IMG/VR virus record: IMGVR_UViG_2778261349_000009
Coordinates: 1 to 14,711 of that record
Strand: one strand, 5' to 3'
From: a virus
Taxonomy: Duplodnaviria; Heunggongvirae; Uroviricota; Caudoviricetes
Length of the DNA stretch: 14,711 bases
Shown here: one piece after another, positions 6,166 to 12,446 of the stretch
How positions within the stretch are numbered: the stretch's first letter is position 1
Layout of the letters: the number at the start of each line of letters is the position of its first letter
Program-made: the position numbers and the translations under genes
Notes under the pieces: model-generated
The model's input: the letters and a program-made list of their open reading frames with translations, nothing else
Told to the model about the DNA's origin: nothing
Databases searched by the model: none

Positions 6166-6266
6166 ATACACATAAATATTAACTTGATTTTAGTGTATTC
6201 GATCCTTTTGAAACTTGCATGTTAATTTATTCTTGATGTATTCTTGATTTGTAAAGTTAATATTGG
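6166..6266. promoter_or_regulatory. Immunity-region operator/promoter cluster (OR/PR/PRM-like)
   Basis: Roughly 130-bp A/T-rich divergent intergenic region containing AACTTGATTTT (6181..6191), the direct repeat TATTCTTGAT twice (6228..6237 and 6239..6248, 11-bp period), inverted repeat TACAC…GTGTA (6166..6197) and several -10-like hexamers (TAATAT at 6258..6263). Exact PR and PRM hexamers could not be assigned unambiguously. Confidence 0.5.
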
Positions 6267-6275
6267 AGCTGTGCT

Positions 6276-6533
6276 GTGATAAAACTGAATGATTACGACA
6301 TGTTGCGTAAATTGATTCCTCAAAACGCCATAGCAAGATACATCGGTGTTACGCCACAAGCGGTGAACCTGTGGTTTTCTAAAAACTCCGTTCCTTCTCG
6401 TTTTGTTTTACGGGTGTGTGAATTAGTTGAATGGAAGGTTACTCCGCATGGGTTAAGACCTGATCTATACCCTTATCCCGAAGATGGAATTCCTGATTCG
6501 TTACGAAAATCAAACGGTATTACCAGAGATTAA
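6276..6533 (+). CDS. cro: Cro-like regulator (YdaS/Cro-type HTH)
   Basis: 85-aa ORF divergent from cI, GTG start with SD GGAG 7 nt upstream. Motif …AIARYIGVTPQAVNLWFSKNSVP…LRPDLYPYP is characteristic of the YdaS/Cro-type small HTH proteins of enterobacterial prophages. Confidence 0.7.
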   Translation: MIKLNDYDMLRKLIPQNAIARYIGVTPQAVNLWFSKNSVPSRFVLRVCELVEWKVTPHGLRPDLYPYPEDGIPDSLRKSNGITRD

Positions 6534-6555
6534 AGACTGACTGTCACGAGCAGTA

Positions 6556-6588
6556 ACTCACGATGCATACGTTTTGGCGTGAGTTTTG
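6556..6588 (+). terminator. Terminator/attenuator-like hairpin downstream of cro (tR1-like position)
   Basis: Inverted repeat ACTCACG…CGTGAGT followed by TTTT. The loop is long (15 nt), so strength is uncertain. Confidence 0.3.
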
Positions 6589-6614
6589 AAATGTCATCCT
6601 CAAGGAGCAATCAG

Positions 6615-7322
6615 ATGAATACCGCAATTTTTACCGATAAAGCATCCATGACCAGTATTGAGATAGCTGAGCTGGTGGGAAGCAGACCAGATAGTGTTAA
6701 GAGAACTATTGAAACACTGGCTAAAAAGGGAATCATCCAATTTCCACAGTCTGTGGAAATTGAGAATAAACAATCACTTGGCCCTCGCCGATTTTCTAGC
6801 GCGTATGTATTCGAAGGTGAACGAGGCAAACGCGACAGCATTATTGTTGTCGCACAGCTTTGCCCTGAATTCACTGCCCGCTTGGTAGATCGCTGGCGTG
6901 AACTGGAAGAACAAATCCGTAAACCGATGAGCCAGATCGAAATGGTTGCTGCAATGGCACTTGAAGCCGTTCGTCAACAAAGACGTCTTGAGCAGGTGGA
7001 AGAGAAAGTCACCCACGTTACTGAAACCGTCGAGAAAATCAAAAGAGGCACCATACGCGATGGTTATGCAGGCTACCGTCAGCTGGTGGCGAAAACGGGT
7101 ATGTCAGATGCGAAATGCCGCAATCTGGTGAACGCATATCAGATCCCTACCGATACCCATGAATTTATGACGCCGGATGGATTGTTGTCTCGTCGAGCGA
7201 TTGTTGCAGTAGAACCTTTCATGGCTGCTTTTCATCGCATGATGAGTGAAGCAGAGCCACGAGGTGCACGCTGGTATCACCCGAAAATGGGGTTGTTCCA
7301 GGCGCTGGGCTGGCAGGGGTAA
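6615..7322 (+). CDS. Putative phage regulatory protein with Rha/antirepressor-like N-terminal DNA-binding domain and coiled-coil middle
   Basis: Track ORF 6579..7322 trimmed to the ATG at 6615 (SD AAGGAG 7 nt upstream). N-terminus …ASMTSIEIAELVGSRPDSVKRTIETLAKKGIIQ… resembles the DNA-binding part of Rha/antirepressor-type proteins. Family assignment is tentative. Confidence 0.45.
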   Translation: MNTAIFTDKASMTSIEIAELVGSRPDSVKRTIETLAKKGIIQFPQSVEIENKQSLGPRRFSSAYVFEGERGKRDSIIVVAQLCPEFTARLVDRWRELEEQIRKPMSQIEMVAAMALEAVRQQRRLEQVEEKVTHVTETVEKIKRGTIRDGYAGYRQLVAKTGMSDAKCRNLVNAYQIPTDTHEFMTPDGLLSRRAIVAVEPFMAAFHRMMSEAEPRGARWYHPKMGLFQALGWQG

Positions 7323-7341
7323 TTATGCTCACAGGTAACAC

Positions 7342-7518
7342 ATGCAAGTACTCAATCGCTGGTTCCGTGATGGAAGGGGGCGTCGCGTCCACATTATACG
7401 CTGGGAGCCTGAAACACAGCGGGTTATTTACCTGCGTGATGGTTATCCGCATGAATGCTTCAGCCCGCTGTGGTTGTTTCGTCGTGATTTTGTTGAGTGC
7501 GAAGCGCCACCAACATAG
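7342..7518 (+). CDS. Small Trp/Arg-rich hypothetical protein (58 aa)
   Basis: Below the ORF-track cutoff; hand-translated: MQVLNRWFRDGRGRRVHIIRWEPETQRVIYLRDGYPHECFSPLWLFRRDFVECEAPPT. Composition is protein-like. SD weak (AGGT). Lies in a different frame from the overlapping 285-aa track ORF. Confidence 0.35.
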   Translation: MQVLNRWFRDGRGRRVHIIRWEPETQRVIYLRDGYPHECFSPLWLFRRDFVECEAPPT

Positions 7519-7630
7519 CGACTCTATATTTAACCTCGTTGACAACATTCAATTCTGGCGGCACACTTTACATATAGTGGCAAAATCCACTATCGGGAGT
7601 GAGACCCCGGAATTGATCGAGGCGACAAAC

Positions 7631-7650
7631 GACGCGCCAGCGTCTTTTTT
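7631..7650 (+). terminator. Candidate intrinsic terminator
   Basis: Stem gacgc / gcgtc with loop gcca, followed by TTTTTT. Confidence 0.35.
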
Positions 7651-7819
7651 GTTGTCAGTGCCTGCGCACGCCAAAATTATGGTGGGCTGGGCAGGGGAAC
7701 CGAAAGGTTCGCCGGTTTCCTTGATCGCCGGTAGTCTCAACCCTGTCCAGTCCGCCACCAGCGAGATTGAGACCTCCTGTGGTGGATATTGTCATTCACC
7801 GATCAAGGAGGCTGTCTTA

Positions 7820-8182
7820 ATGGCTACGATCCCCGCACATCCATATCTCAAAATCGAGGTCGTCAACGGCAGAGCCGTTATATTCTCCCTGTATGTCGCC
7901 TGTCACTTTAAGCGCATGCATAAGAATATCATCGATCGAATCGAATATCTCAACTGCTCACGCGAATTTCTCACCCGCAACTTTATTCCCGGCACTTATC
8001 GCGCCTATGGCGATTCAGTGCGTGGTTATTACATCACCCGTGATGGTCTGATGATGCTACAGCTTGGGTTAAGTCTGCGCACCATGCGGTACTACGAGAG
8101 CTGTATTGACGCACTCCATGAGGTTGAAACCGTCCAGGGTCACTCCGTGTCCCGTCGTAATCAACGGGAGGTACGCCCATGA
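7820..8182 (+). CDS. Rha family phage regulatory protein (120 aa)
   Basis: Internal ATG at 7820 of the 285-aa track ORF, with excellent SD AAGGAGG 8 nt upstream. Sequence …HFKRMHKNIIDRIEYLNCSREFLTRNFIPGTYRAYGDSVRGYYITRDGLMMLQLGLS… matches the conserved Rha-domain pattern (K.H.NVL.DI..L.CS.EF...NF....Y.D..G...Y.ITRDGF..L). Confidence 0.7.
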   Translation: MATIPAHPYLKIEVVNGRAVIFSLYVACHFKRMHKNIIDRIEYLNCSREFLTRNFIPGTYRAYGDSVRGYYITRDGLMMLQLGLSLRTMRYYESCIDALHEVETVQGHSVSRRNQREVRP

Positions 8183-8373
8183 TTAGTTACGAAATCATCA
8201 TCTCCACTGCGGAATACAGAAACGATGTATCAGTTCGCACGGATGTATCTGTCTGGCACCGTCGCTATAAATCCAGAAAAACGGCAGAACTGAAAGCGGC
8301 AGAGATGTGTGAAACCATCTCAATGAAAGGTAGCCCGGTTAAATACGTAACTACGGCGGAGGTGCGTCCATGA
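8179..8373 (+). CDS. Hypothetical small protein (64 aa)
   Basis: Start overlaps the stop of the Rha gene (ATGA), implying translational coupling. No recognisable motif. Confidence 0.45.
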   Translation: MISYEIIISTAEYRNDVSVRTDVSVWHRRYKSRKTAELKAAEMCETISMKGSPVKYVTTAEVRP

Positions 8374-8594
8374 TCCGCCACATCGTTAATTTCCTGTATC
8401 ACCGATACAACCATTGCCCCCGTGTGGGGCAGTGGTTCACCACCAGCAATGGACACGTTCTGCGGGTTTGCCTGGTCAATACAGAAAGCCAGAAGGTTGT
8501 CTGCCAGGTTCAGGGACGTACTCATACCCTGAGTTATCCGCTGGTGGCGTTTCAGTCCGGAAAAATGTTTAAGCGTCTGGGAGGTGCCGTGTGA
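8370..8594 (+). CDS. Hypothetical small protein (74 aa), Cys/His-containing
   Basis: ATGA overlap with the upstream ORF. Contains H..H.C…C…C spacing that could bind zinc. No family recognised. Confidence 0.45.
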   Translation: MIRHIVNFLYHRYNHCPRVGQWFTTSNGHVLRVCLVNTESQKVVCQVQGRTHTLSYPLVAFQSGKMFKRLGGAV

Positions 8595-8917
8595 TTTGTA
8601 AATTAACGCCTGAAAAAAAAGCGCTCAATAAGAGTTCAAGGCTGCTTTTATCTTATTTGCAAAATGCTTCAGGTGAGCAGGGTTTTGTGGAAATTTCTCT
8701 TCTGGAATTGTCCGCAGCTCTTGGCTTATGCCGTAACACAATCACAAACGCTACGGCATTACTCGAAGATCTTGGCGTTGTCACTGTTTCCAGGGGGAGA
8801 AGGAATAAAACGAAAAGTGGAAAGGAAAGTGCAGGGAAAAATATTTACAGGTTGATCCAGTCAGCGACCAATAATAAGGACTACGCCATAGTCATGCCGC
8901 GTAAGGAGGTCGTATGA
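8591..8917 (+). CDS. Putative HTH/winged-helix DNA-binding protein (108 aa)
   Basis: GTG start overlapping the upstream stop (GTGA). HTH-like segment …FVEISLLELSAALGLCRNTITNATALLEDLGVVTV… Contains an A8 homopolymer at 8616..8623 within codons 8-10. Confidence 0.5.
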   Translation: MICKLTPEKKALNKSSRLLLSYLQNASGEQGFVEISLLELSAALGLCRNTITNATALLEDLGVVTVSRGRRNKTKSGKESAGKNIYRLIQSATNNKDYAIVMPRKEVV

Positions 8918-9906
8918 GTCGTTACGCTCCTACACCGGAGGTTATGGCTATTGGTCAAATTAATATTTCCGGCAATGTCACACCGCCATCCTGGTGGAAA
9001 CATATCCAGCTACCCAGTGGGCGTCCAGATGCGACTGCCATTGCGCTGCTTTCAGAGATTGTTTACTGGTATCGCCCGACAGAAGTCAGGGATGAGCATA
9101 CAGGGGCTTTACTGGGATATCGCAAGCGTTTTCAGAGTGACAAGCTGCAAAGAAGCTATCAGGCGTTTGCTGAGCAGTTTGGCTTTGGGAAAAGGGAAAC
9201 CGCAGATGCGCTGAAGCGTCTTCGTGATGCCGGGTTTATTACTCTGGATTTACGCACGGTGGAAATGCTCGATGGGGTGAAATGCAGCAATATTTTGTTT
9301 GTCGGGATCAACCCACAGGCAATTGCTGCCATCACCACACCTTCTTCTGTTTCGCCAGAAAGTAACAGCAATAATGCAATCAGCGATACAGCTATTACGT
9401 TAAAACGGAACACCCCCCAACGTCATAACGGAACAGGGGATACGCCGAATGTTGATACAAATACAGAGATTACTACAGAGATTACAACGGAGACTAAAAA
9501 CACTATTGGCGCATCCGCTGACGCGTCTGCACCAGCGCGTTCTGCCAGACAGGAATATTCACCGGAATTTGAGCAGGCCTGGCAGGAATACCCCAAACGT
9601 GCTGGTGGTAATTCCAAGTCAGCAGCTTTCAAAGCCTGGAAAGCCCGAATCAGGGAAGGTGTGACACCAGAAACCATGCTCAACGGTGTGAAACGCTATG
9701 CCGCCTGGGTGCGTGTCTCAGGAAATATCGGCACCCAGTTTGTGAAGCAGGCGTCGACGTTCTTTGGCCCCGATCGACACTTTGACGAATCCTGGCAACA
9801 GCCTGCCGTTCCCGGAGGTGGGCGGCAAAGACAGGTCGATGTTCTGTCTGGCCTTGGTGCCATGTCTGACAAATTCGGTAAATCCAGCGACAAACTGACA
9901 TTCTGA
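8914..9906 (+). CDS. Replication initiation protein (lambda O-like role; N-terminal winged-helix, C-terminal domain, linker with tandem repeats)
   Basis: 330-aa ORF immediately upstream of and coupled to the DnaC-like gene. N-terminal DNA-binding-like domain, low-complexity linker (…DTNTEITTEITTETKNT…), conserved-looking C-terminal domain (…EYSPEFEQAWQEYPKRAGGNSKSAAFKAWKARI…FDESWQ). Function inferred from position and architecture. Confidence 0.6.
   Translation: MSRYAPTPEVMAIGQINISGNVTPPSWWKHIQLPSGRPDATAIALLSEIVYWYRPTEVRDEHTGALLGYRKRFQSDKLQRSYQAFAEQFGFGKRETADALKRLRDAGFITLDLRTVEMLDGVKCSNILFVGINPQAIAAITTPSSVSPESNSNNAISDTAITLKRNTPQRHNGTGDTPNVDTNTEITTEITTETKNTIGASADASAPARSARQEYSPEFEQAWQEYPKRAGGNSKSAAFKAWKARIREGVTPETMLNGVKRYAAWVRVSGNIGTQFVKQASTFFGPDRHFDESWQQPAVPGGGRQRQVDVLSGLGAMSDKFGKSSDKLTF
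9461..9496. repeat. Iteron-like tandem repeats inside the initiator gene (candidate ori)
   Basis: Imperfect 12-bp tandem repeats starting at 9462 (acagagattact, acagagattaca, acggagact), in the interdomain linker of the initiator gene, the same location as ori-lambda iterons within gene O. Confidence 0.4.
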
Positions 9907-9916
9907 GGTGACAGCG

Positions 9917-10795
9917 ATGATGACGTTTAACCTGCGTGAACAACAAACAAGACTACAGGCGCGGATGGATGAGTTACGGGCAGAGATTGCATTTGCTCAG
10001 AAGGGCGAAAAACCATGGCCTTATCGTTCCTGCTGGATGCGTGAAGGGCGCGGGTGTTGCGAAAAACATGGCGAATACCACACACATATTCTGGTGTGGA
10101 GCGATCGTAATGGCGAGGACAGAGAAAAAATTTCATGCTGCCCTGACTGCTTGATAGCTGAGGCCAACGATTTGACCATGGAGCTGTCGTCCCTCAAGGC
10201 GGAAGAACTGACTGATAACGCCGGAATTGCTCTGCGTTTTCGGGACTGCGAGTTTGATAATTATCTGGAGGTTAATCCTGACGCAGCCAGAAATCTTGCG
10301 GCCTGTCGCCGCTATGCGGAGAACTGGCCAGATATGCTGGAGAACGGTACCAGTCTTGTTATGACCGGCAGTTGCGGTACCGGGAAAAATCATCTGGCGG
10401 TATCAATGGCAAAACACATCATCCGTAACTATCTGGCCAGTGTGGAGATCACCGACGTGATGCGCCTTACCCGTGCTGTGAAAAACTGCTGGCGGAATGA
10501 CAGTGAAAAAACAGCGGATGACGTCATTGAGCATTATGCGTCACTGGATTTGCTGATCATCGACGAAGTCGGCGTTCAGTTTGGCAGTGCGGCTGAAATG
10601 GCCATTTTGCAGGAAATTATCAATGCCCGGTATGAGGGTATTTTGCCAACTATCTTGATCAGCAACCTTTCACCGGAAGAATTGTGGGCGTTCATCAGTC
10701 CCCGGATTGCCGACAGGATCACCAATGGCGGGCGCAACTGGTTGTCGTTTAACTGGCCCAGCTACCGTTCTCGTATCGGAGGTGTTGCCGCATGA
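9917..10795 (+). CDS. DnaC/IstB-like AAA+ helicase loader with N-terminal Cys/His cluster
   Basis: Walker A (GSCGTGKNHLAVSMAKH) and Walker B (LLIIDEVG). N-terminal CWMREGRGCCEKHGEYHTHILVW…CCPDC is zinc-ribbon-like. Start set to the ATG at 9917 (SD GAGGTG 7 nt upstream) rather than the GTG at 9908. Confidence 0.85.
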   Translation: MMTFNLREQQTRLQARMDELRAEIAFAQKGEKPWPYRSCWMREGRGCCEKHGEYHTHILVWSDRNGEDREKISCCPDCLIAEANDLTMELSSLKAEELTDNAGIALRFRDCEFDNYLEVNPDAARNLAACRRYAENWPDMLENGTSLVMTGSCGTGKNHLAVSMAKHIIRNYLASVEITDVMRLTRAVKNCWRNDSEKTADDVIEHYASLDLLIIDEVGVQFGSAAEMAILQEIINARYEGILPTILISNLSPEELWAFISPRIADRITNGGRNWLSFNWPSYRSRIGGVAA

Positions 10796-12192
10796 CCAGC
10801 CAGAACACCCCGGCATGGCGTAACGATGACCTGGAAGGCGCTGTCATTGGCGCGTTTTTTCTGCGTGGGGCTGATCCGGAAGTGATGGATATTCTGGCCA
10901 CATTGTCGGCGGACGTTTTTTCTGCACGACAGTACCGGGATATTTACGCGGGAATTTGCAGACAGGCCCGTGTATCCGGCGTCATTGACCCCGTACTGCT
11001 GTGCAATGAGATGCCGGAACTTGCCCCGGTGATTACCGACACCGGACGCAAAACCTGGGTGAAGTCTTCACTGGAGCACTATGTCGCAGCGTTGCGGCGT
11101 AATGCCGCACTGCGCGATGCAGAAAAAACACTGACTGAAGCATTACAGAATTTACGTGATGCGTATACCTGTGAAGCAGCCGAGGATGCCCTGAAGGATG
11201 CGCAGAACATGATGGCCTCACTGTCGACCGGAAAGGGCGTCATTCAGCCGGTTCACATTGATGATGTCCTTCCGGAAGTGGTCGACCGTGTTGAATGCCG
11301 CAATCAGGGACTGGAGAAATCCAGGGCGCTGATGACCGGTATTGATGAACTGGACGCAAAAACGGGCGGTATGGAGCCAGGCGACCTGGTATTCATTGCG
11401 GCTCGTCCTTCGATGGGGAAAACCGAACTTGCGCTGGATATCATCGACAAGGTGACTGAGCAGGGGCATGGCGTGCTTCTGTTCACCATGGAGATGGCGA
11501 ACATCCAGATTGGTGAACGTATGGTGTCTGCAGCAGGGGGAATGCCGGTATCCCGTCTTAAGTCTGTTGCCCGTTTTGAAGACGAAGACTGGGCACGTTT
11601 CTCACAGGGCGTGGGACGAATGACGGGGCGTAATATCTGGATGGTGGACCAGGCAAACCTGACCATTGATGAGATATGTGCAACCACGAGGCACCACCGG
11701 ATGAAACACCCGGAAACGGCGCTGGTGGTGGTCGATTACCTCGGCCTGATTAAAACCCGCAGCACGGGGCGTCACGACCTTGCTGTGGGGGAAATCTCAA
11801 AGGGACTAAAAAGCCTGGCAAAATCCGGCGGTTTTCCGCTGATTGCTCTGAGCCAGCTCTCCCGCGGTGTGGAATCCAGACCCAATAAACGCCCCATGAA
11901 CTCGGACCTGAAAAACTCAGGGGAAATAGAGGCGGATGCAGACATCATTCTGATGCTTTACAGGGATGAGGTGTACAACCCGGAGACACAGGCGAGAGGC
12001 ATAGCAGAAATCAACATCACGAAACAGCGTAATGGCACGCTGGGTACCATTTACCGGCGTTTTCATAACGGGCATTTTCTGCCTGTGGACCAGGAGAGTG
12101 CCCGGATTCTTTCCACTCCCATGACGCCGGGCAATCCGCGCAGATACAGCAATAACCGCATGTCGGGTAGTAAAACGGAGCGTTTATTTTGA
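10792..12192 (+). CDS. DnaB-type replicative DNA helicase (phage-encoded)
   Basis: 466-aa ORF. Walker A (IAARPSMGKTELALDI), Walker B (VVVDYLGLI), RecA-like C-terminal motifs (SQLSRGVESRPNKRPMNSDLKNSGEIEADADIILMLYRDEVY; ITKQRNGTLG). ATGA overlap with the loader gene. Confidence 0.9.
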   Translation: MTSQNTPAWRNDDLEGAVIGAFFLRGADPEVMDILATLSADVFSARQYRDIYAGICRQARVSGVIDPVLLCNEMPELAPVITDTGRKTWVKSSLEHYVAALRRNAALRDAEKTLTEALQNLRDAYTCEAAEDALKDAQNMMASLSTGKGVIQPVHIDDVLPEVVDRVECRNQGLEKSRALMTGIDELDAKTGGMEPGDLVFIAARPSMGKTELALDIIDKVTEQGHGVLLFTMEMANIQIGERMVSAAGGMPVSRLKSVARFEDEDWARFSQGVGRMTGRNIWMVDQANLTIDEICATTRHHRMKHPETALVVVDYLGLIKTRSTGRHDLAVGEISKGLKSLAKSGGFPLIALSQLSRGVESRPNKRPMNSDLKNSGEIEADADIILMLYRDEVYNPETQARGIAEINITKQRNGTLGTIYRRFHNGHFLPVDQESARILSTPMTPGNPRRYSNNRMSGSKTERLF

Positions 12193-12446
12193 ACAACAGA
12201 ACAACCACTGTTTCACCGGAACAACTTCGTCGGCAGGCGCAGGAGATGCTTCGTTGTGCTGAACAGATGGAAAAAACGAGCGTGGCAAAAGATACGCTCC
12301 GCAAGCAGCTTACTCCGGCGCTTCGTGATCTGCTGCAGGCAAAACACCGCACACAAAAGGCGGTGGATGAGCTGGTGGATTGCGTGGCGGAACTGGAAGG
12401 CCAGGTAAGCCAGTTTGAAACGCTGGTGAAGGAGTTTACTGCGTGA
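12189..12446 (+). CDS. Hypothetical coiled-coil protein (85 aa)
   Basis: ORF beginning with TTG overlapping the helicase stop (TTGA). Predicted helical/coiled-coil composition. Start codon uncertain. Confidence 0.4.
   Translation: MNNRTTTVSPEQLRRQAQEMLRCAEQMEKTSVAKDTLRKQLTPALRDLLQAKHRTQKAVDELVDCVAELEGQVSQFETLVKEFTA

What the first reader, a model, noticed from the sequence alone, without database searches (positions are those of the whole stretch)
6534..7819. No cII-like gene between cro and the replication genes; two terminator-like hairpins, a hidden 58-aa W/R-rich ORF and about 300 bp without an obvious gene
After cro there is a hairpin plus T-run (6556..6588), a 235-aa Rha/antirepressor-like gene, an unannotated 58-aa Trp/Arg-rich ORF (7342..7518), a second terminator-like hairpin (7631..7650), and then about 170 bp before the next SD-preceded gene. 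The 285-aa track ORF covering 7325..7819 looks like an artefact. The stretch 7519..7819 could hold a promoter, a small RNA or an antitermination site (nut-like), since no N gene is evident elsewhere.
Basis: partly seen in the sequence, partly recalled or inferred. Interest (0 to 1): 0.4.

Follow-up and report, generated by a model that had tools for sequence, protein, structure and literature searches.

The report
Known phage immunity RNAs, misannotated as protein
The "empty" 300 bp after the 58-aa gene holds two known phage regulatory RNAs (IsrK and C4) that most likely gate the next gene and the replication genes, so the stretch is ordinary apart from being annotated as an "Ash" protein.

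Summary
The sequence features exist, but most are already explained. Window 7519..7819 is not empty. It holds a sigma-70 promoter (-35 at 7539-7544, -10 at 7562-7567). A C4-family antisense RNA follows (7675-7762, 83.4 bits, fold z = -7.3).

Two single-stranded C4 segments (one in its second hairpin loop, one just 3' of it) pair with sites downstream: 7767-7773, and 7800-7809 over the Shine-Dalgarno of the 120-aa Rha-family gene (ATG 7820). They also pair with decoy copies inside IsrK. These three sets of sites co-vary across 39 lineages.

The layout matches the immunity modules of phage P1 (c4-icd-ant), satellite phage P4 (seqA-CI-seqC) and Gifsy-1 (isrK-STnc1160-anrP). It is present in 250 phage records, and one record annotates both RNAs.

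The 58-aa ORF is a real, annotated DUF4222 gene. The first hairpin (6555-6588) is weak. No cII-like gene lies between cro and the replication genes.

Verdict: a new member of a known kind. Interest is low, apart from the annotation point.

The parts
7539..7567 (+). Sigma-70 promoter of the module (-35 TTGACA 7539-7544, 17-nt spacer, -10 CACACT 7562-7567). The predicted start is about 7574.
   Evidence: It aligns column for column with the annotated P1 promoter P1c4/P51b (TTGACC / TATAGT) and with TTGAC/TTGAT and TAnnnT in most of 39 lineages. The simple promoter scan did not call it, because the -10 is weak.
7574..7650 (+). IsrK-family sRNA (the equivalent of P4 seqA and the P1 a1/b1 leader). 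It has two 5' hairpins, a linker and an intrinsic terminator (7631-7644 plus U-run 7645-7650).
   Evidence: Rfam RF01394 scores 61.4 bits (GA 50), E 2.4e-11, full length. 10 of 12 consensus pairs show compensatory changes. The terminator was called.
7600..7605 (+). a1 decoy site (UGAGAC) in the loop of IsrK hairpin 2, complementary to C4 a'.
   Evidence: The equivalent pairing was proven by compensatory mutations in Gifsy-1 (G28A/C162U and G31A/C159U; PMC4825925).
7615..7622 (+). b1 decoy site (GAUCGAGG), complementary to C4 b' (8 bp including one G.U).
   Evidence: Read from the sequence. The cognate duplex is -29.6 kcal/mol and ranks best of 39.
7675..7762 (+). C4-family antisense RNA (the equivalent of P1/P7 C4, P4 CI and Salmonella STnc1160). 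A 17-bp closing stem encloses two hairpins.
   Evidence: Rfam RF01695 scores 83.4 bits (GA 45), E 1.5e-15. MFE is -49.4 kcal/mol, z = -7.3. 18 of 25 pairs show compensatory changes.
7718..7727 (+). b' recognition loop of C4 (UCCUUGAUCG).
   Evidence: It is perfectly complementary to 7800-7809.
7734..7740 (+). a' recognition segment of C4 (GUCUCAA).
   Evidence: It is perfectly complementary to 7767-7773 and matches 7600-7605 over 6 nt.
7767..7773 (+). a2 target site (UUGAGAC).
   Evidence: It aligns with the annotated a2 of P1.
7800..7811 (+). b2 target site (CGAUCAAGGA, 7800-7809), overlapping the Shine-Dalgarno AAGGAGG (7805-7811).
   Evidence: It aligns with the annotated b2 of P1, which overlaps the icd ribosome-binding site.
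7820..8182 (+). Regulated gene: a 120-aa Rha-domain protein. It is the first cistron of a tightly packed operon that runs into the replication genes.
   Evidence: Pfam Phage_pRha scores 31 bits (GA 29.9) and phrog_995 gives E 9.6e-51. Third-position substitution excess is 58 of 106. The next four start codons each overlap the preceding stop by 4 nt.
7342..7518 (+). DUF4222 gene (58 aa), a real gene directly upstream of the module. It is not part of the RNA mechanism.
   Evidence: PF13973 gives E 1.6e-15, phrog_1343 gives E 3.3e-33, and RefSeq annotates it.
7325..7819 (+). N-terminal extension of the 285-aa ORF (RefSeq 'ash family protein' starts at 7451). The reading frame is open but not coding.
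   Evidence: The Pfam Phage_ASH match covers nt 7577..7843, that is the RNAs. There is no codon-position bias and no enrichment of the open frame.
6555..6588 (+). Weak hairpin plus UUUU after cro; function not supported.
   Evidence: -11 kcal/mol, z = -1.7, not called by the terminator scan.

Best explanation
The stretch is a P1 immI / P4-type antisense-RNA immunity module, placed in a lambdoid early-right operon between cro and the replication genes.

Proposed mechanism:
1. A promoter at 7539-7567 starts transcription at about 7574.
2. Most transcripts stop at the intrinsic terminator (7631-7650) and give the IsrK sRNA.
3. Read-through transcripts carry the C4 RNA (7675-7762), which is cut out of the precursor. 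In P1 the 5' cut is made by RNase P.
4. C4 pairs through its b' loop and a' segment with a2 (7767-7773) and b2 (7800-7809). This covers the ribosome-binding site of the 120-aa Rha-family gene.
5. The untranslated mRNA is then open to Rho, so the translationally coupled downstream genes stay silent. These include the O-like initiator, the DnaC-like loader and the DnaB helicase.
6. IsrK carries copies of the same sites (a1, b1). It competes for C4 and tips the switch towards expression when transcription rises.
7. The co-varying a/b sequences set the immunity specificity.

Shown here: the RNA family memberships, the folds, the covariation, the complementarities and the gene order.
Inferred by homology: processing of C4, the translational block, Rho polarity, and the promoter being active in the lysogen.
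For: - Rfam hits lie above the gathering score for isrK (61.4 against 50) and C4 (83.4 against 45).
- The C4 fold has z = -7.3.
- Compensatory changes occur in 18 of 25 C4 pairs and 10 of 12 IsrK pairs.
- Exact complementarity: 10 nt for b'/b2 over the SD and 7 nt for a'/a2, plus upstream copies.
- Across 39 lineages, cognate C4-target duplexes average -29.7 kcal/mol against -22.0 for non-cognate pairs. Cognate C4-IsrK duplexes average -28.3 against -19.1. No permutation out of 5000 reached either value, and the window's own sites rank first of 39.
- The module is colinear, base for base, with P1, where the promoter, a1, b1, c4, a2, b2 and icd are all annotated. It is also colinear with Gifsy-1, SfV, phiP27, D6 and P4.
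- The Gifsy-1 IsrK-to-C4-region pairing was proven by compensatory mutations (PMC4825925).
- Genes from 7820 to 12446 overlap or abut.
- One GenBank phage record annotates the same RNA pair in the same arrangement.
Against: - There are no expression data for this prophage.
- The -10 (CACACT) is poorer than in relatives, and the promoter scan missed it.
- The regulated protein is a 120-aa Rha domain alone, not an Ant or Icd homologue, so 'antirepressor' is unproven.
- No CI-operator-like repeat lies near the promoter, so its link to the main switch is unknown.
- In Gifsy-1 the published net effect of IsrK is activation through an upstream ORF (orf45), and the role of the C4-like STnc1160 was left open. 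The sign and detail of the regulation may therefore differ.
- The lineages compared are related, so the permutation values overstate independence.
Confidence: 0.8

Rival explanations
1. The long ORF is real. An 'Ash-Rha' fusion protein (243-285 aa, or 167 aa from AUG 7679) is made, and the Ash domain is a true protein domain that happens to overlap the RNA genes.
For: - Pfam Phage_ASH scores 48 bits (GA 26).
- RefSeq annotates it in this and related prophages.
- The frame is open in many relatives.
- In Gifsy-1 the AUG at the 5' end of C4 starts a translated 45-codon ORF (PMC4825925). In the window that AUG (7679) is in frame with the Rha gene, with no stop between.
Against: - Substitutions at codon positions 1/2/3 in 7574-7819 are 40/44/32, against 23/25/58 in the Rha gene and 67/57/148 in the upstream Rha235 gene (p = 4e-5 and 1e-6).
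- Across 39 lineages the gene's frame is open through C4 in 18, and the other two frames in 18 and 17.
- The distance from C4 to the ATG varies from 119 to 170 nt and is not held to multiples of three; in P1 and D6 the frame stops.
- The 'ORF' contains a promoter and an intrinsic terminator.
- The annotated start (7451) lies upstream of the module's own transcription start and overlaps DUF4222 by 68 nt.
- The P4 ORF that matches the Pfam model covers the CI RNA, which is an RNA factor processed from an untranslated transcript (PMC4825925).
- AUG 7679 lies at the base of a 17-bp stem and has no SD.
Confidence: 0.1
2. It is a lambda-like tR1/nut region: the hairpins are terminators overcome by an antiterminator, and the conserved RNA acts in cis as a put/nut-type antitermination element.
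For: - It sits between cro and the replication genes.
- An intrinsic terminator lies at 7631-7650.
- No N gene was recognised.
Against: - There is no boxA consensus in the window.
- The only Rfam matches are isrK and C4.
- The conserved loops are complementary to a ribosome-binding site and co-vary with it. That fits trans or cis antisense pairing, not polymerase modification.
- The element has its own promoter, conserved with P1.
Confidence: 0.05
3. It is a decayed remnant: the RNAs are recognisable but inactive in this prophage, because the -10 is weakened and the effector is a truncated Rha protein.
For: - The -10 CACACT is unique to this cluster.
- The 120-aa protein lacks the C-terminal part of phrog_995 (it matches positions 101-221 of 307).
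Against: - All pairing sites are intact and cognate, ranking first of 39.
- The RNA region is identical in a relative whose neighbouring Rha235 gene differs at 94 sites (L244).
- The SD, the ATG and the downstream operon are intact.
Confidence: 0.05

Closest known systems
Phage P1/P7 immI: c4 antisense RNA - icd - ant1/2 (Citron and Schuster 1990; annotated in NC_005856)
   Same: Same order of promoter, a1, b1, terminator-like hairpin, C4 RNA, a2, and b2 over the first ribosome-binding site, alignable base for base. C4 belongs to the same Rfam family.
   Different: - The downstream gene is a Rha-domain protein, not Icd plus Ant. Only the first 5-7 codons resemble the Icd-like start.
- No repressor operator was found at the promoter.
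- The module sits in a lambdoid early-right operon ahead of replication genes.
Satellite phage P4 immunity: seqA - CI RNA (seqB) - seqC - eta/kil, controlling the alpha replication operon by premature termination
   Same: An RNA repressor is flanked by two complementary sites, the downstream one at the start of the first ORF, with replication genes further down the same operon (PMC4825925, PMC10111431).
   Different: P4 has no cI/cro protein switch. Here the module coexists with an S24-type CI repressor and a Cro. The Rho-dependent terminator has not been identified here.
Salmonella Gifsy-1 isrK - orf45/STnc1160 - anrP - isrJ (Hershko-Shalev 2016, PMC4825925)
   Same: - It has an IsrK sRNA with its own promoter and a leaky terminator.
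- A processed C4-like RNA lies downstream.
- The IsrK middle part pairs with the C4 a'/b' region.
- An antirepressor-type gene follows.
   Different: - In Gifsy-1 the module lies after the Q gene, and the effector is an ORF6N protein.
- orf45 ends with a stop that overlaps the anrP AUG. In the window the same frame runs into the Rha gene without a stop.
SfV, phiP27, APSE and 'Eru6/7/9' Stx phages with 'Rha/Ash' genes after cro
   Same: Same layout of cI - cro - gene(s) - module - replication genes. The isrK plus C4 pair was noted in APSE (PMC7313666) and is annotated in LC710660.
   Different: They carry other a/b specificities and other effector proteins. Published descriptions mostly treat 'Ash' as a protein domain of unknown function (PMC8951638).

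Membership tests
Rfam C4 antisense RNA (RF01695) | Covariance-model score at or above the gathering score, full length | tested here: met
   83.4 bits against 45, model positions 1-87 of 87, E 1.5e-15.
Rfam C4 antisense RNA (RF01695) | Long closing stem enclosing two hairpins, supported by covariation | tested here: met
   MFE -49.4 kcal/mol, z = -7.3. 18 of 25 pairs show double changes in 30 sequences.
Rfam C4 antisense RNA (RF01695) | Loop sequences a' and b' complementary to sites in the co-transcribed target, with b2 over the ribosome-binding site | tested here: met
   10-nt and 7-nt perfect matches. The cognate pair ranks first of 39.
Rfam C4 antisense RNA (RF01695) | Mature RNA processed from a longer precursor (RNase P at the 5' end) | not testable with these tools
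   Needs RNA end mapping.
Rfam isrK (RF01394) | Covariance-model score at or above the gathering score, with a terminal intrinsic terminator | tested here: met
   61.4 bits against 50, positions 1-77 of 77. The terminator was called.
Rfam isrK (RF01394) | Own promoter directly upstream | tested here: met
   TTGACA, 17 nt, CACACT, aligned with the annotated P1 promoter P1c4 and conserved across lineages. Promoter activity was not measured.
Rfam isrK (RF01394) | Hfq binding | not testable with these tools
   Needs an experiment.
P1-type immI system | Downstream icd-like ORF coupled to an Ant antirepressor | tested here: not met
   The downstream gene is a 120-aa Rha-domain protein. Only the MATIP start resembles the Icd-like start of phage D6 (P1 Icd itself begins MVNAN).
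P1-type immI system | Primary-repressor operator at the module promoter (Op51 in P1) | tested here: not met
   No copy (up to 2 mismatches) of the cI-cro inverted repeats lies near 7519-7575. The real operators are unknown, so this test is weak.
P4-type immunity | RNA repressor with complementary sites on both sides, and replication genes downstream in the same operon | tested here: met
P4-type immunity | Rho-dependent premature termination caused by the RNA | not testable with these tools
   Needs transcript mapping with and without Rho inhibition.
Pfam Phage_ASH (PF10554) protein domain | HMM score above the gathering score | tested here: met
   48 bits against 26, on aa 85-173 of the 285-aa ORF, which is nt 7577-7843.
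Pfam Phage_ASH (PF10554) protein domain | The region evolves as protein-coding sequence (frame kept, third-position bias) | tested here: not met
Lambda cII between cro and O | A cII-family protein encoded between cro and the replication genes | tested here: not met
   No Pfam or PHROG cII match for the ORFs in 6615-8917. A 'CII-like regulator' PHROG match lies left of cI instead (4614-5342, minus strand).
Lambda N/nut antitermination | boxA/boxB site after cro | tested here: inconclusive
   No exact boxA consensus in the window. boxB was not modelled.

The most novel reading that the evidence does not exclude
In this lineage the reading frame that starts at the AUG forming the 5' end of C4 (7679) is fused in frame to the Rha gene. 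Unprocessed read-through transcripts could therefore yield a 167-aa N-terminally extended Rha protein whose first 47 codons are the C4 RNA and its target. The same 140 nt would then act both as an antisense repressor and as coding sequence. Choosing between processing and translation would decide between repression and an alternative protein isoform.
Probability: 0.07. Interest if true: 0.55.

Novelty: new member of a known kind. Interest (0 to 1): 0.25.

Why it matters
There are two practical points.

First, this prophage family includes many Shiga-toxin phages, where the 'Rha/Ash' genes lie directly after the cI-cro switch. Its replication genes sit behind an RNA-based gate of the P1/P4 type rather than behind lambda-style N/nut and cII. 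This bears on lysogen stability and on cross-immunity between co-resident prophages.

Second, the 'Ash' protein domain (Pfam PF10554, RefSeq 'ash family protein') is here, and in P4, the translation of the IsrK/C4 RNA module. Papers that list it as a protein domain of unknown function, or use it as a protein marker, are probably tracking an RNA element. Annotation pipelines should call the two RNAs and start the protein at the SD-preceded ATG.

Neither point is a new kind of biology.

Tried and rejected
- A genome-contig scan with a 17-base C4 core pattern was too unspecific, giving roughly the number of hits expected by chance in 596 Gb. I did not use it. A longer pattern on viral contigs gave 115 usable loci.
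- A first look at how far the downstream gene's frame stays open seemed to favour a real long ORF. A control with the other two frames removed that impression.
- I searched for copies of the cI-cro inverted repeats near the module promoter and found none.
- I searched for a boxA consensus and found none.
- The first hairpin (6555-6588) was folded and is not distinguishable from shuffles.
- I did not run structure prediction or the large protein searches, because the codon-position and frame tests already answered the coding question.
- I rejected cII or N functions for the small ORFs at 8179-8917. They match PHROGs of unknown function or the N-terminal part of replication initiators.
Full report
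**Context**

The window is identical over the 2.2 kb compared (6200-8400) to a lambdoid prophage beside mlrA in E. coli strains 00-3076 and RM9245. The genes run in this order:
- integrase and xis;
- leftward early genes;
- an S24-type CI repressor (5454-6173, minus strand);
- a Cro/YdaS-like gene (6276-6533);
- a 235-aa Rha/Ant-like gene (6615-7322);
- a 58-aa gene (7342-7518);
- a 301-bp gap;
- a 120-aa Rha-domain gene (7820-8182);
- three small ORFs;
- an O-like initiator, a DnaC-like loader and a DnaB helicase;
- further on, a Q-family antiterminator.

**Checking the observation**

Most of the listed features are in the sequence.
- The hairpin GACGC/GCGTC plus six T at 7631-7650 is called by the terminator scan.
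- It is followed by 169 nt, then AAGGAGG and an ATG at 7820.
- The 58-aa ORF is real but not hidden. It matches DUF4222 (E 1.6e-15) and phrog_1343 (E 3.3e-33), and RefSeq annotates it.
- The first hairpin (6555-6588) has an 8-bp stem, a 15-nt loop and only four U. It folds no better than 9 of 200 shuffles (z = -1.7) and the scan did not call it. I would not call it a terminator.

**What the gap contains**

Rfam gives two full-length matches above the curated thresholds. Both lie on the + strand.
- isrK (RF01394) at 7574-7650: 61.4 bits, E 2.4e-11.
- C4 antisense RNA (RF01695) at 7675-7762: 83.4 bits, E 1.5e-15.

C4 folds into a 17-bp closing stem around two hairpins at -49.4 kcal/mol, z = -7.3.

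I fetched 115 viral contigs with a C4 core pattern and reduced them to 34 lineages at 90% identity. To these I added Gifsy-1, P1, D6, F039 and P4. In that set, 18 of 25 C4 pairs and 10 of 12 IsrK pairs show compensatory double changes.

**Anatomy of the module**

An alignment of the window with Gifsy-1, SfV, phiP27, Stx phage F039, D6 and P1 is colinear from promoter to start codon.
- The window's TTGACA (7539-7544) and CACACT (7562-7567), 17 nt apart, align with the annotated P1 promoter P1c4/P51b. They also align with TTGAC/TTGAT and TAnnnT in most lineages. The predicted start at 7574 coincides with the first position of the Rfam isrK match.
- The C4 b' loop UCCUUGAUCG (7718-7727) is perfectly complementary to CGAUCAAGGA (7800-7809). 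That site overlaps the Shine-Dalgarno of the 7820 gene.
- The C4 a' segment GUCUCAA (7734-7740) is complementary to UUGAGAC (7767-7773).
- IsrK carries a second copy of each site. UGAGAC (7600-7605) sits in the loop of hairpin 2, and GAUCGAGG (7615-7622) pairs over 8 bp with one G.U.
- These correspond to the sites annotated in P1 as a1, b1, a2 and b2.

The three sets of sites change together from lineage to lineage. Examples are UGAGAC, UGGCGU, UGGAAC, UGACAG and UAGGAC.
- Cognate C4-to-downstream duplexes average -29.7 kcal/mol, against -22.0 for non-cognate pairs.
- Cognate C4-to-IsrK duplexes average -28.3, against -19.1.
- No permutation out of 5000 reached either value, and the window's own sites rank first of 39.

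The lineages are related, so these numbers overstate independence. The pattern of distinct specificities is nevertheless clear.

**Is the long ORF real?**

- RefSeq annotates an 'ash family protein' from 7451 to 8182.
- Pfam Phage_ASH matches aa 85-173 of the 285-aa ORF (48 bits, GA 26).
- The frame is open in many relatives.

However, the Pfam match covers nt 7577-7843, which is exactly IsrK, C4 and the target. Several tests speak against coding.

1. Codon positions. I compared the window with three related E. coli prophages.

| Region | Substitutions at codon position 1 / 2 / 3 |
|---|---|
| 7574-7819 (the 'Ash' stretch) | 40 / 44 / 32 |
| 120-aa Rha gene | 23 / 25 / 58 |
| 235-aa Rha gene | 67 / 57 / 148 |

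Fisher tests give p = 4e-5 and p = 1e-6.

2. Frame openness. Across 39 lineages, the frame continuous with the downstream gene is open from C4 to the ATG in 18. The other two frames are open in 18 and 17. Through both RNA segments the counts are 14, 15 and 11. Stops are simply rare in this G+C-rich structured sequence.

3. Spacing. The distance from the 5' end of C4 to the start codon ranges from 119 to 170 nt, and its remainder mod 3 is 0, 1 or 2 in 13, 8 and 18 lineages. In P1 and D6 the frame stops before the gene.

4. Contents. The putative coding region contains a conserved promoter and an intrinsic terminator. The annotated start (7451) lies upstream of the module's own transcription start and overlaps DUF4222 by 68 nt.

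5. The P4 precedent. The P4 ORF that matches the same Pfam model (the historical 'cI gene product') matches over nt 8521-8330. The CI RNA homologue lies at 8507-8420. CI is an RNA factor processed from an untranslated transcript (PMC4825925, section 21; PMC10111431).

The start at 7820 has support of its own. It has a strong SD 8 nt upstream, and that SD coincides with b2. The aligned ATGGCTAC start is conserved in many lineages. The Rha domain begins within the first 10-23 residues, and codon bias begins there.

One caveat remains. In Gifsy-1 the AUG that forms the 5' end of the C4-like RNA starts a translated 45-codon ORF (orf45), whose stop overlaps the anrP start (PMC4825925). In the window the same AUG (7679) is in frame with the Rha gene and no stop intervenes. 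A 167-aa isoform therefore cannot be excluded. Against it, this AUG has no SD and sits at the base of the 17-bp stem.

**How it most likely works**

By homology with P1, P4 and Gifsy-1:
- The promoter gives mostly terminated IsrK.
- Read-through transcripts are processed to release C4.
- C4 masks the ribosome-binding site of the 7820 gene.
- The next four start codons each overlap the preceding stop by 4 nt, and the genes stay tightly packed down to 12446. A translational block at the first cistron should therefore expose the RNA to Rho. That would silence the O-like, DnaC-like and DnaB genes, as CI RNA does for the P4 alpha operon.
- IsrK carries a1 and b1 and can compete for C4. The corresponding pairing was demonstrated by compensatory mutations in Gifsy-1.

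The family memberships, folds, complementarities and gene order are shown here. Processing, the translational block, Rho polarity and promoter activity in the lysogen are inferred. The protein under control has only a Rha domain (phrog_995 positions 101-221 of 307), so calling it an antirepressor would be a guess.

**What was not found**

- None of the ORFs between cro and the initiator matches cII. A 242-aa two-HTH protein to the left of cI (4614-5342, minus strand) matches a PHROG named 'CII-like regulator' (E 4.7e-92).
- There is no boxA consensus in the window.
- No copy of the cI-cro inverted repeats lies near the module promoter.
- Rfam finds nothing else in the window.

**Novelty**

- The module occurs in 250 phage records, including phiP27, SfV ('immunity region'), many Stx phages, D6, APSE-1 and phiKO2.
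- One record annotates both RNAs in the same arrangement.
- The isrK plus C4 pair has been noted in APSE phages (PMC7313666), and as detectors of seqA and CI relatives in satellites (PMC10111431).

This is therefore a new, unannotated member of a known kind. The one point that seems under-appreciated is that the 'Ash domain' is the translated RNA module. The Stx-phage literature lists it as a domain of unknown function (PMC8951638), and it has been used as a protein marker for P4-like elements (PMC8628076).

Noticed in passing
window 4614..5342 (-): A 242-aa protein with two HTH regions sits immediately left of cI, where lambda has N. It matches phrog_4836 'CII-like regulator' at E 4.7e-92. 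If the PHROG name is right, the cII-type function may lie on the other side of the switch.
   Followed up: no
window 7577..7843; L007 (P4) 8521..8330: Pfam Phage_ASH (PF10554) aligns exactly to the translated isrK/C4/target RNA module, both here and on the obsolete P4 'cI protein' ORF. PGAP names such ORFs 'ash family protein'. Published work treats Ash as a protein domain or marker (PMC8951638, PMC8628076).
   Followed up: partly
L246 (NZ_CP046539) 1352..2919; L003 (phiP27) 606..2086: Close relatives seem to carry two modules in tandem, each apparently followed by its own Rha-type gene. That would give two RNA specificities in one phage.
   Followed up: no
window 7820..7840: The first 5-7 codons (MATIPAH) are conserved at the DNA level with phage D6 Icd-like, the P4 eta/kil-type ORF, SfV and F039, although the rest of the proteins are unrelated. 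Either the recombination joint lies just inside the gene, or these bases are part of the RNA target.
   Followed up: partly
window 7773..7777 and 7807..7811: A CCUCC next to a2 pairs with the GGAGG of the Shine-Dalgarno in the minimum-energy fold of 7574-7830. It is conserved in several lineages. This could be a second, intramolecular layer of RBS masking.
   Followed up: no
window 7562..7567: The -10 of the module promoter is CACACT only in this cluster; relatives have TACACT, TATATT or TATTCT. The promoter may be weaker here.
   Followed up: no
window ~1705..1809 (-): RefSeq annotates a truncated second DUF4222 copy (pseudogene) near xis.
   Followed up: no
window ~6603: A mosaic boundary: Stx1 phages share 6603-7517 at 95.6%, while other phages share 6200-7302. 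The cro module (with the weak hairpin) and the Rha235/DUF4222 module therefore seem to recombine separately.
   Followed up: no
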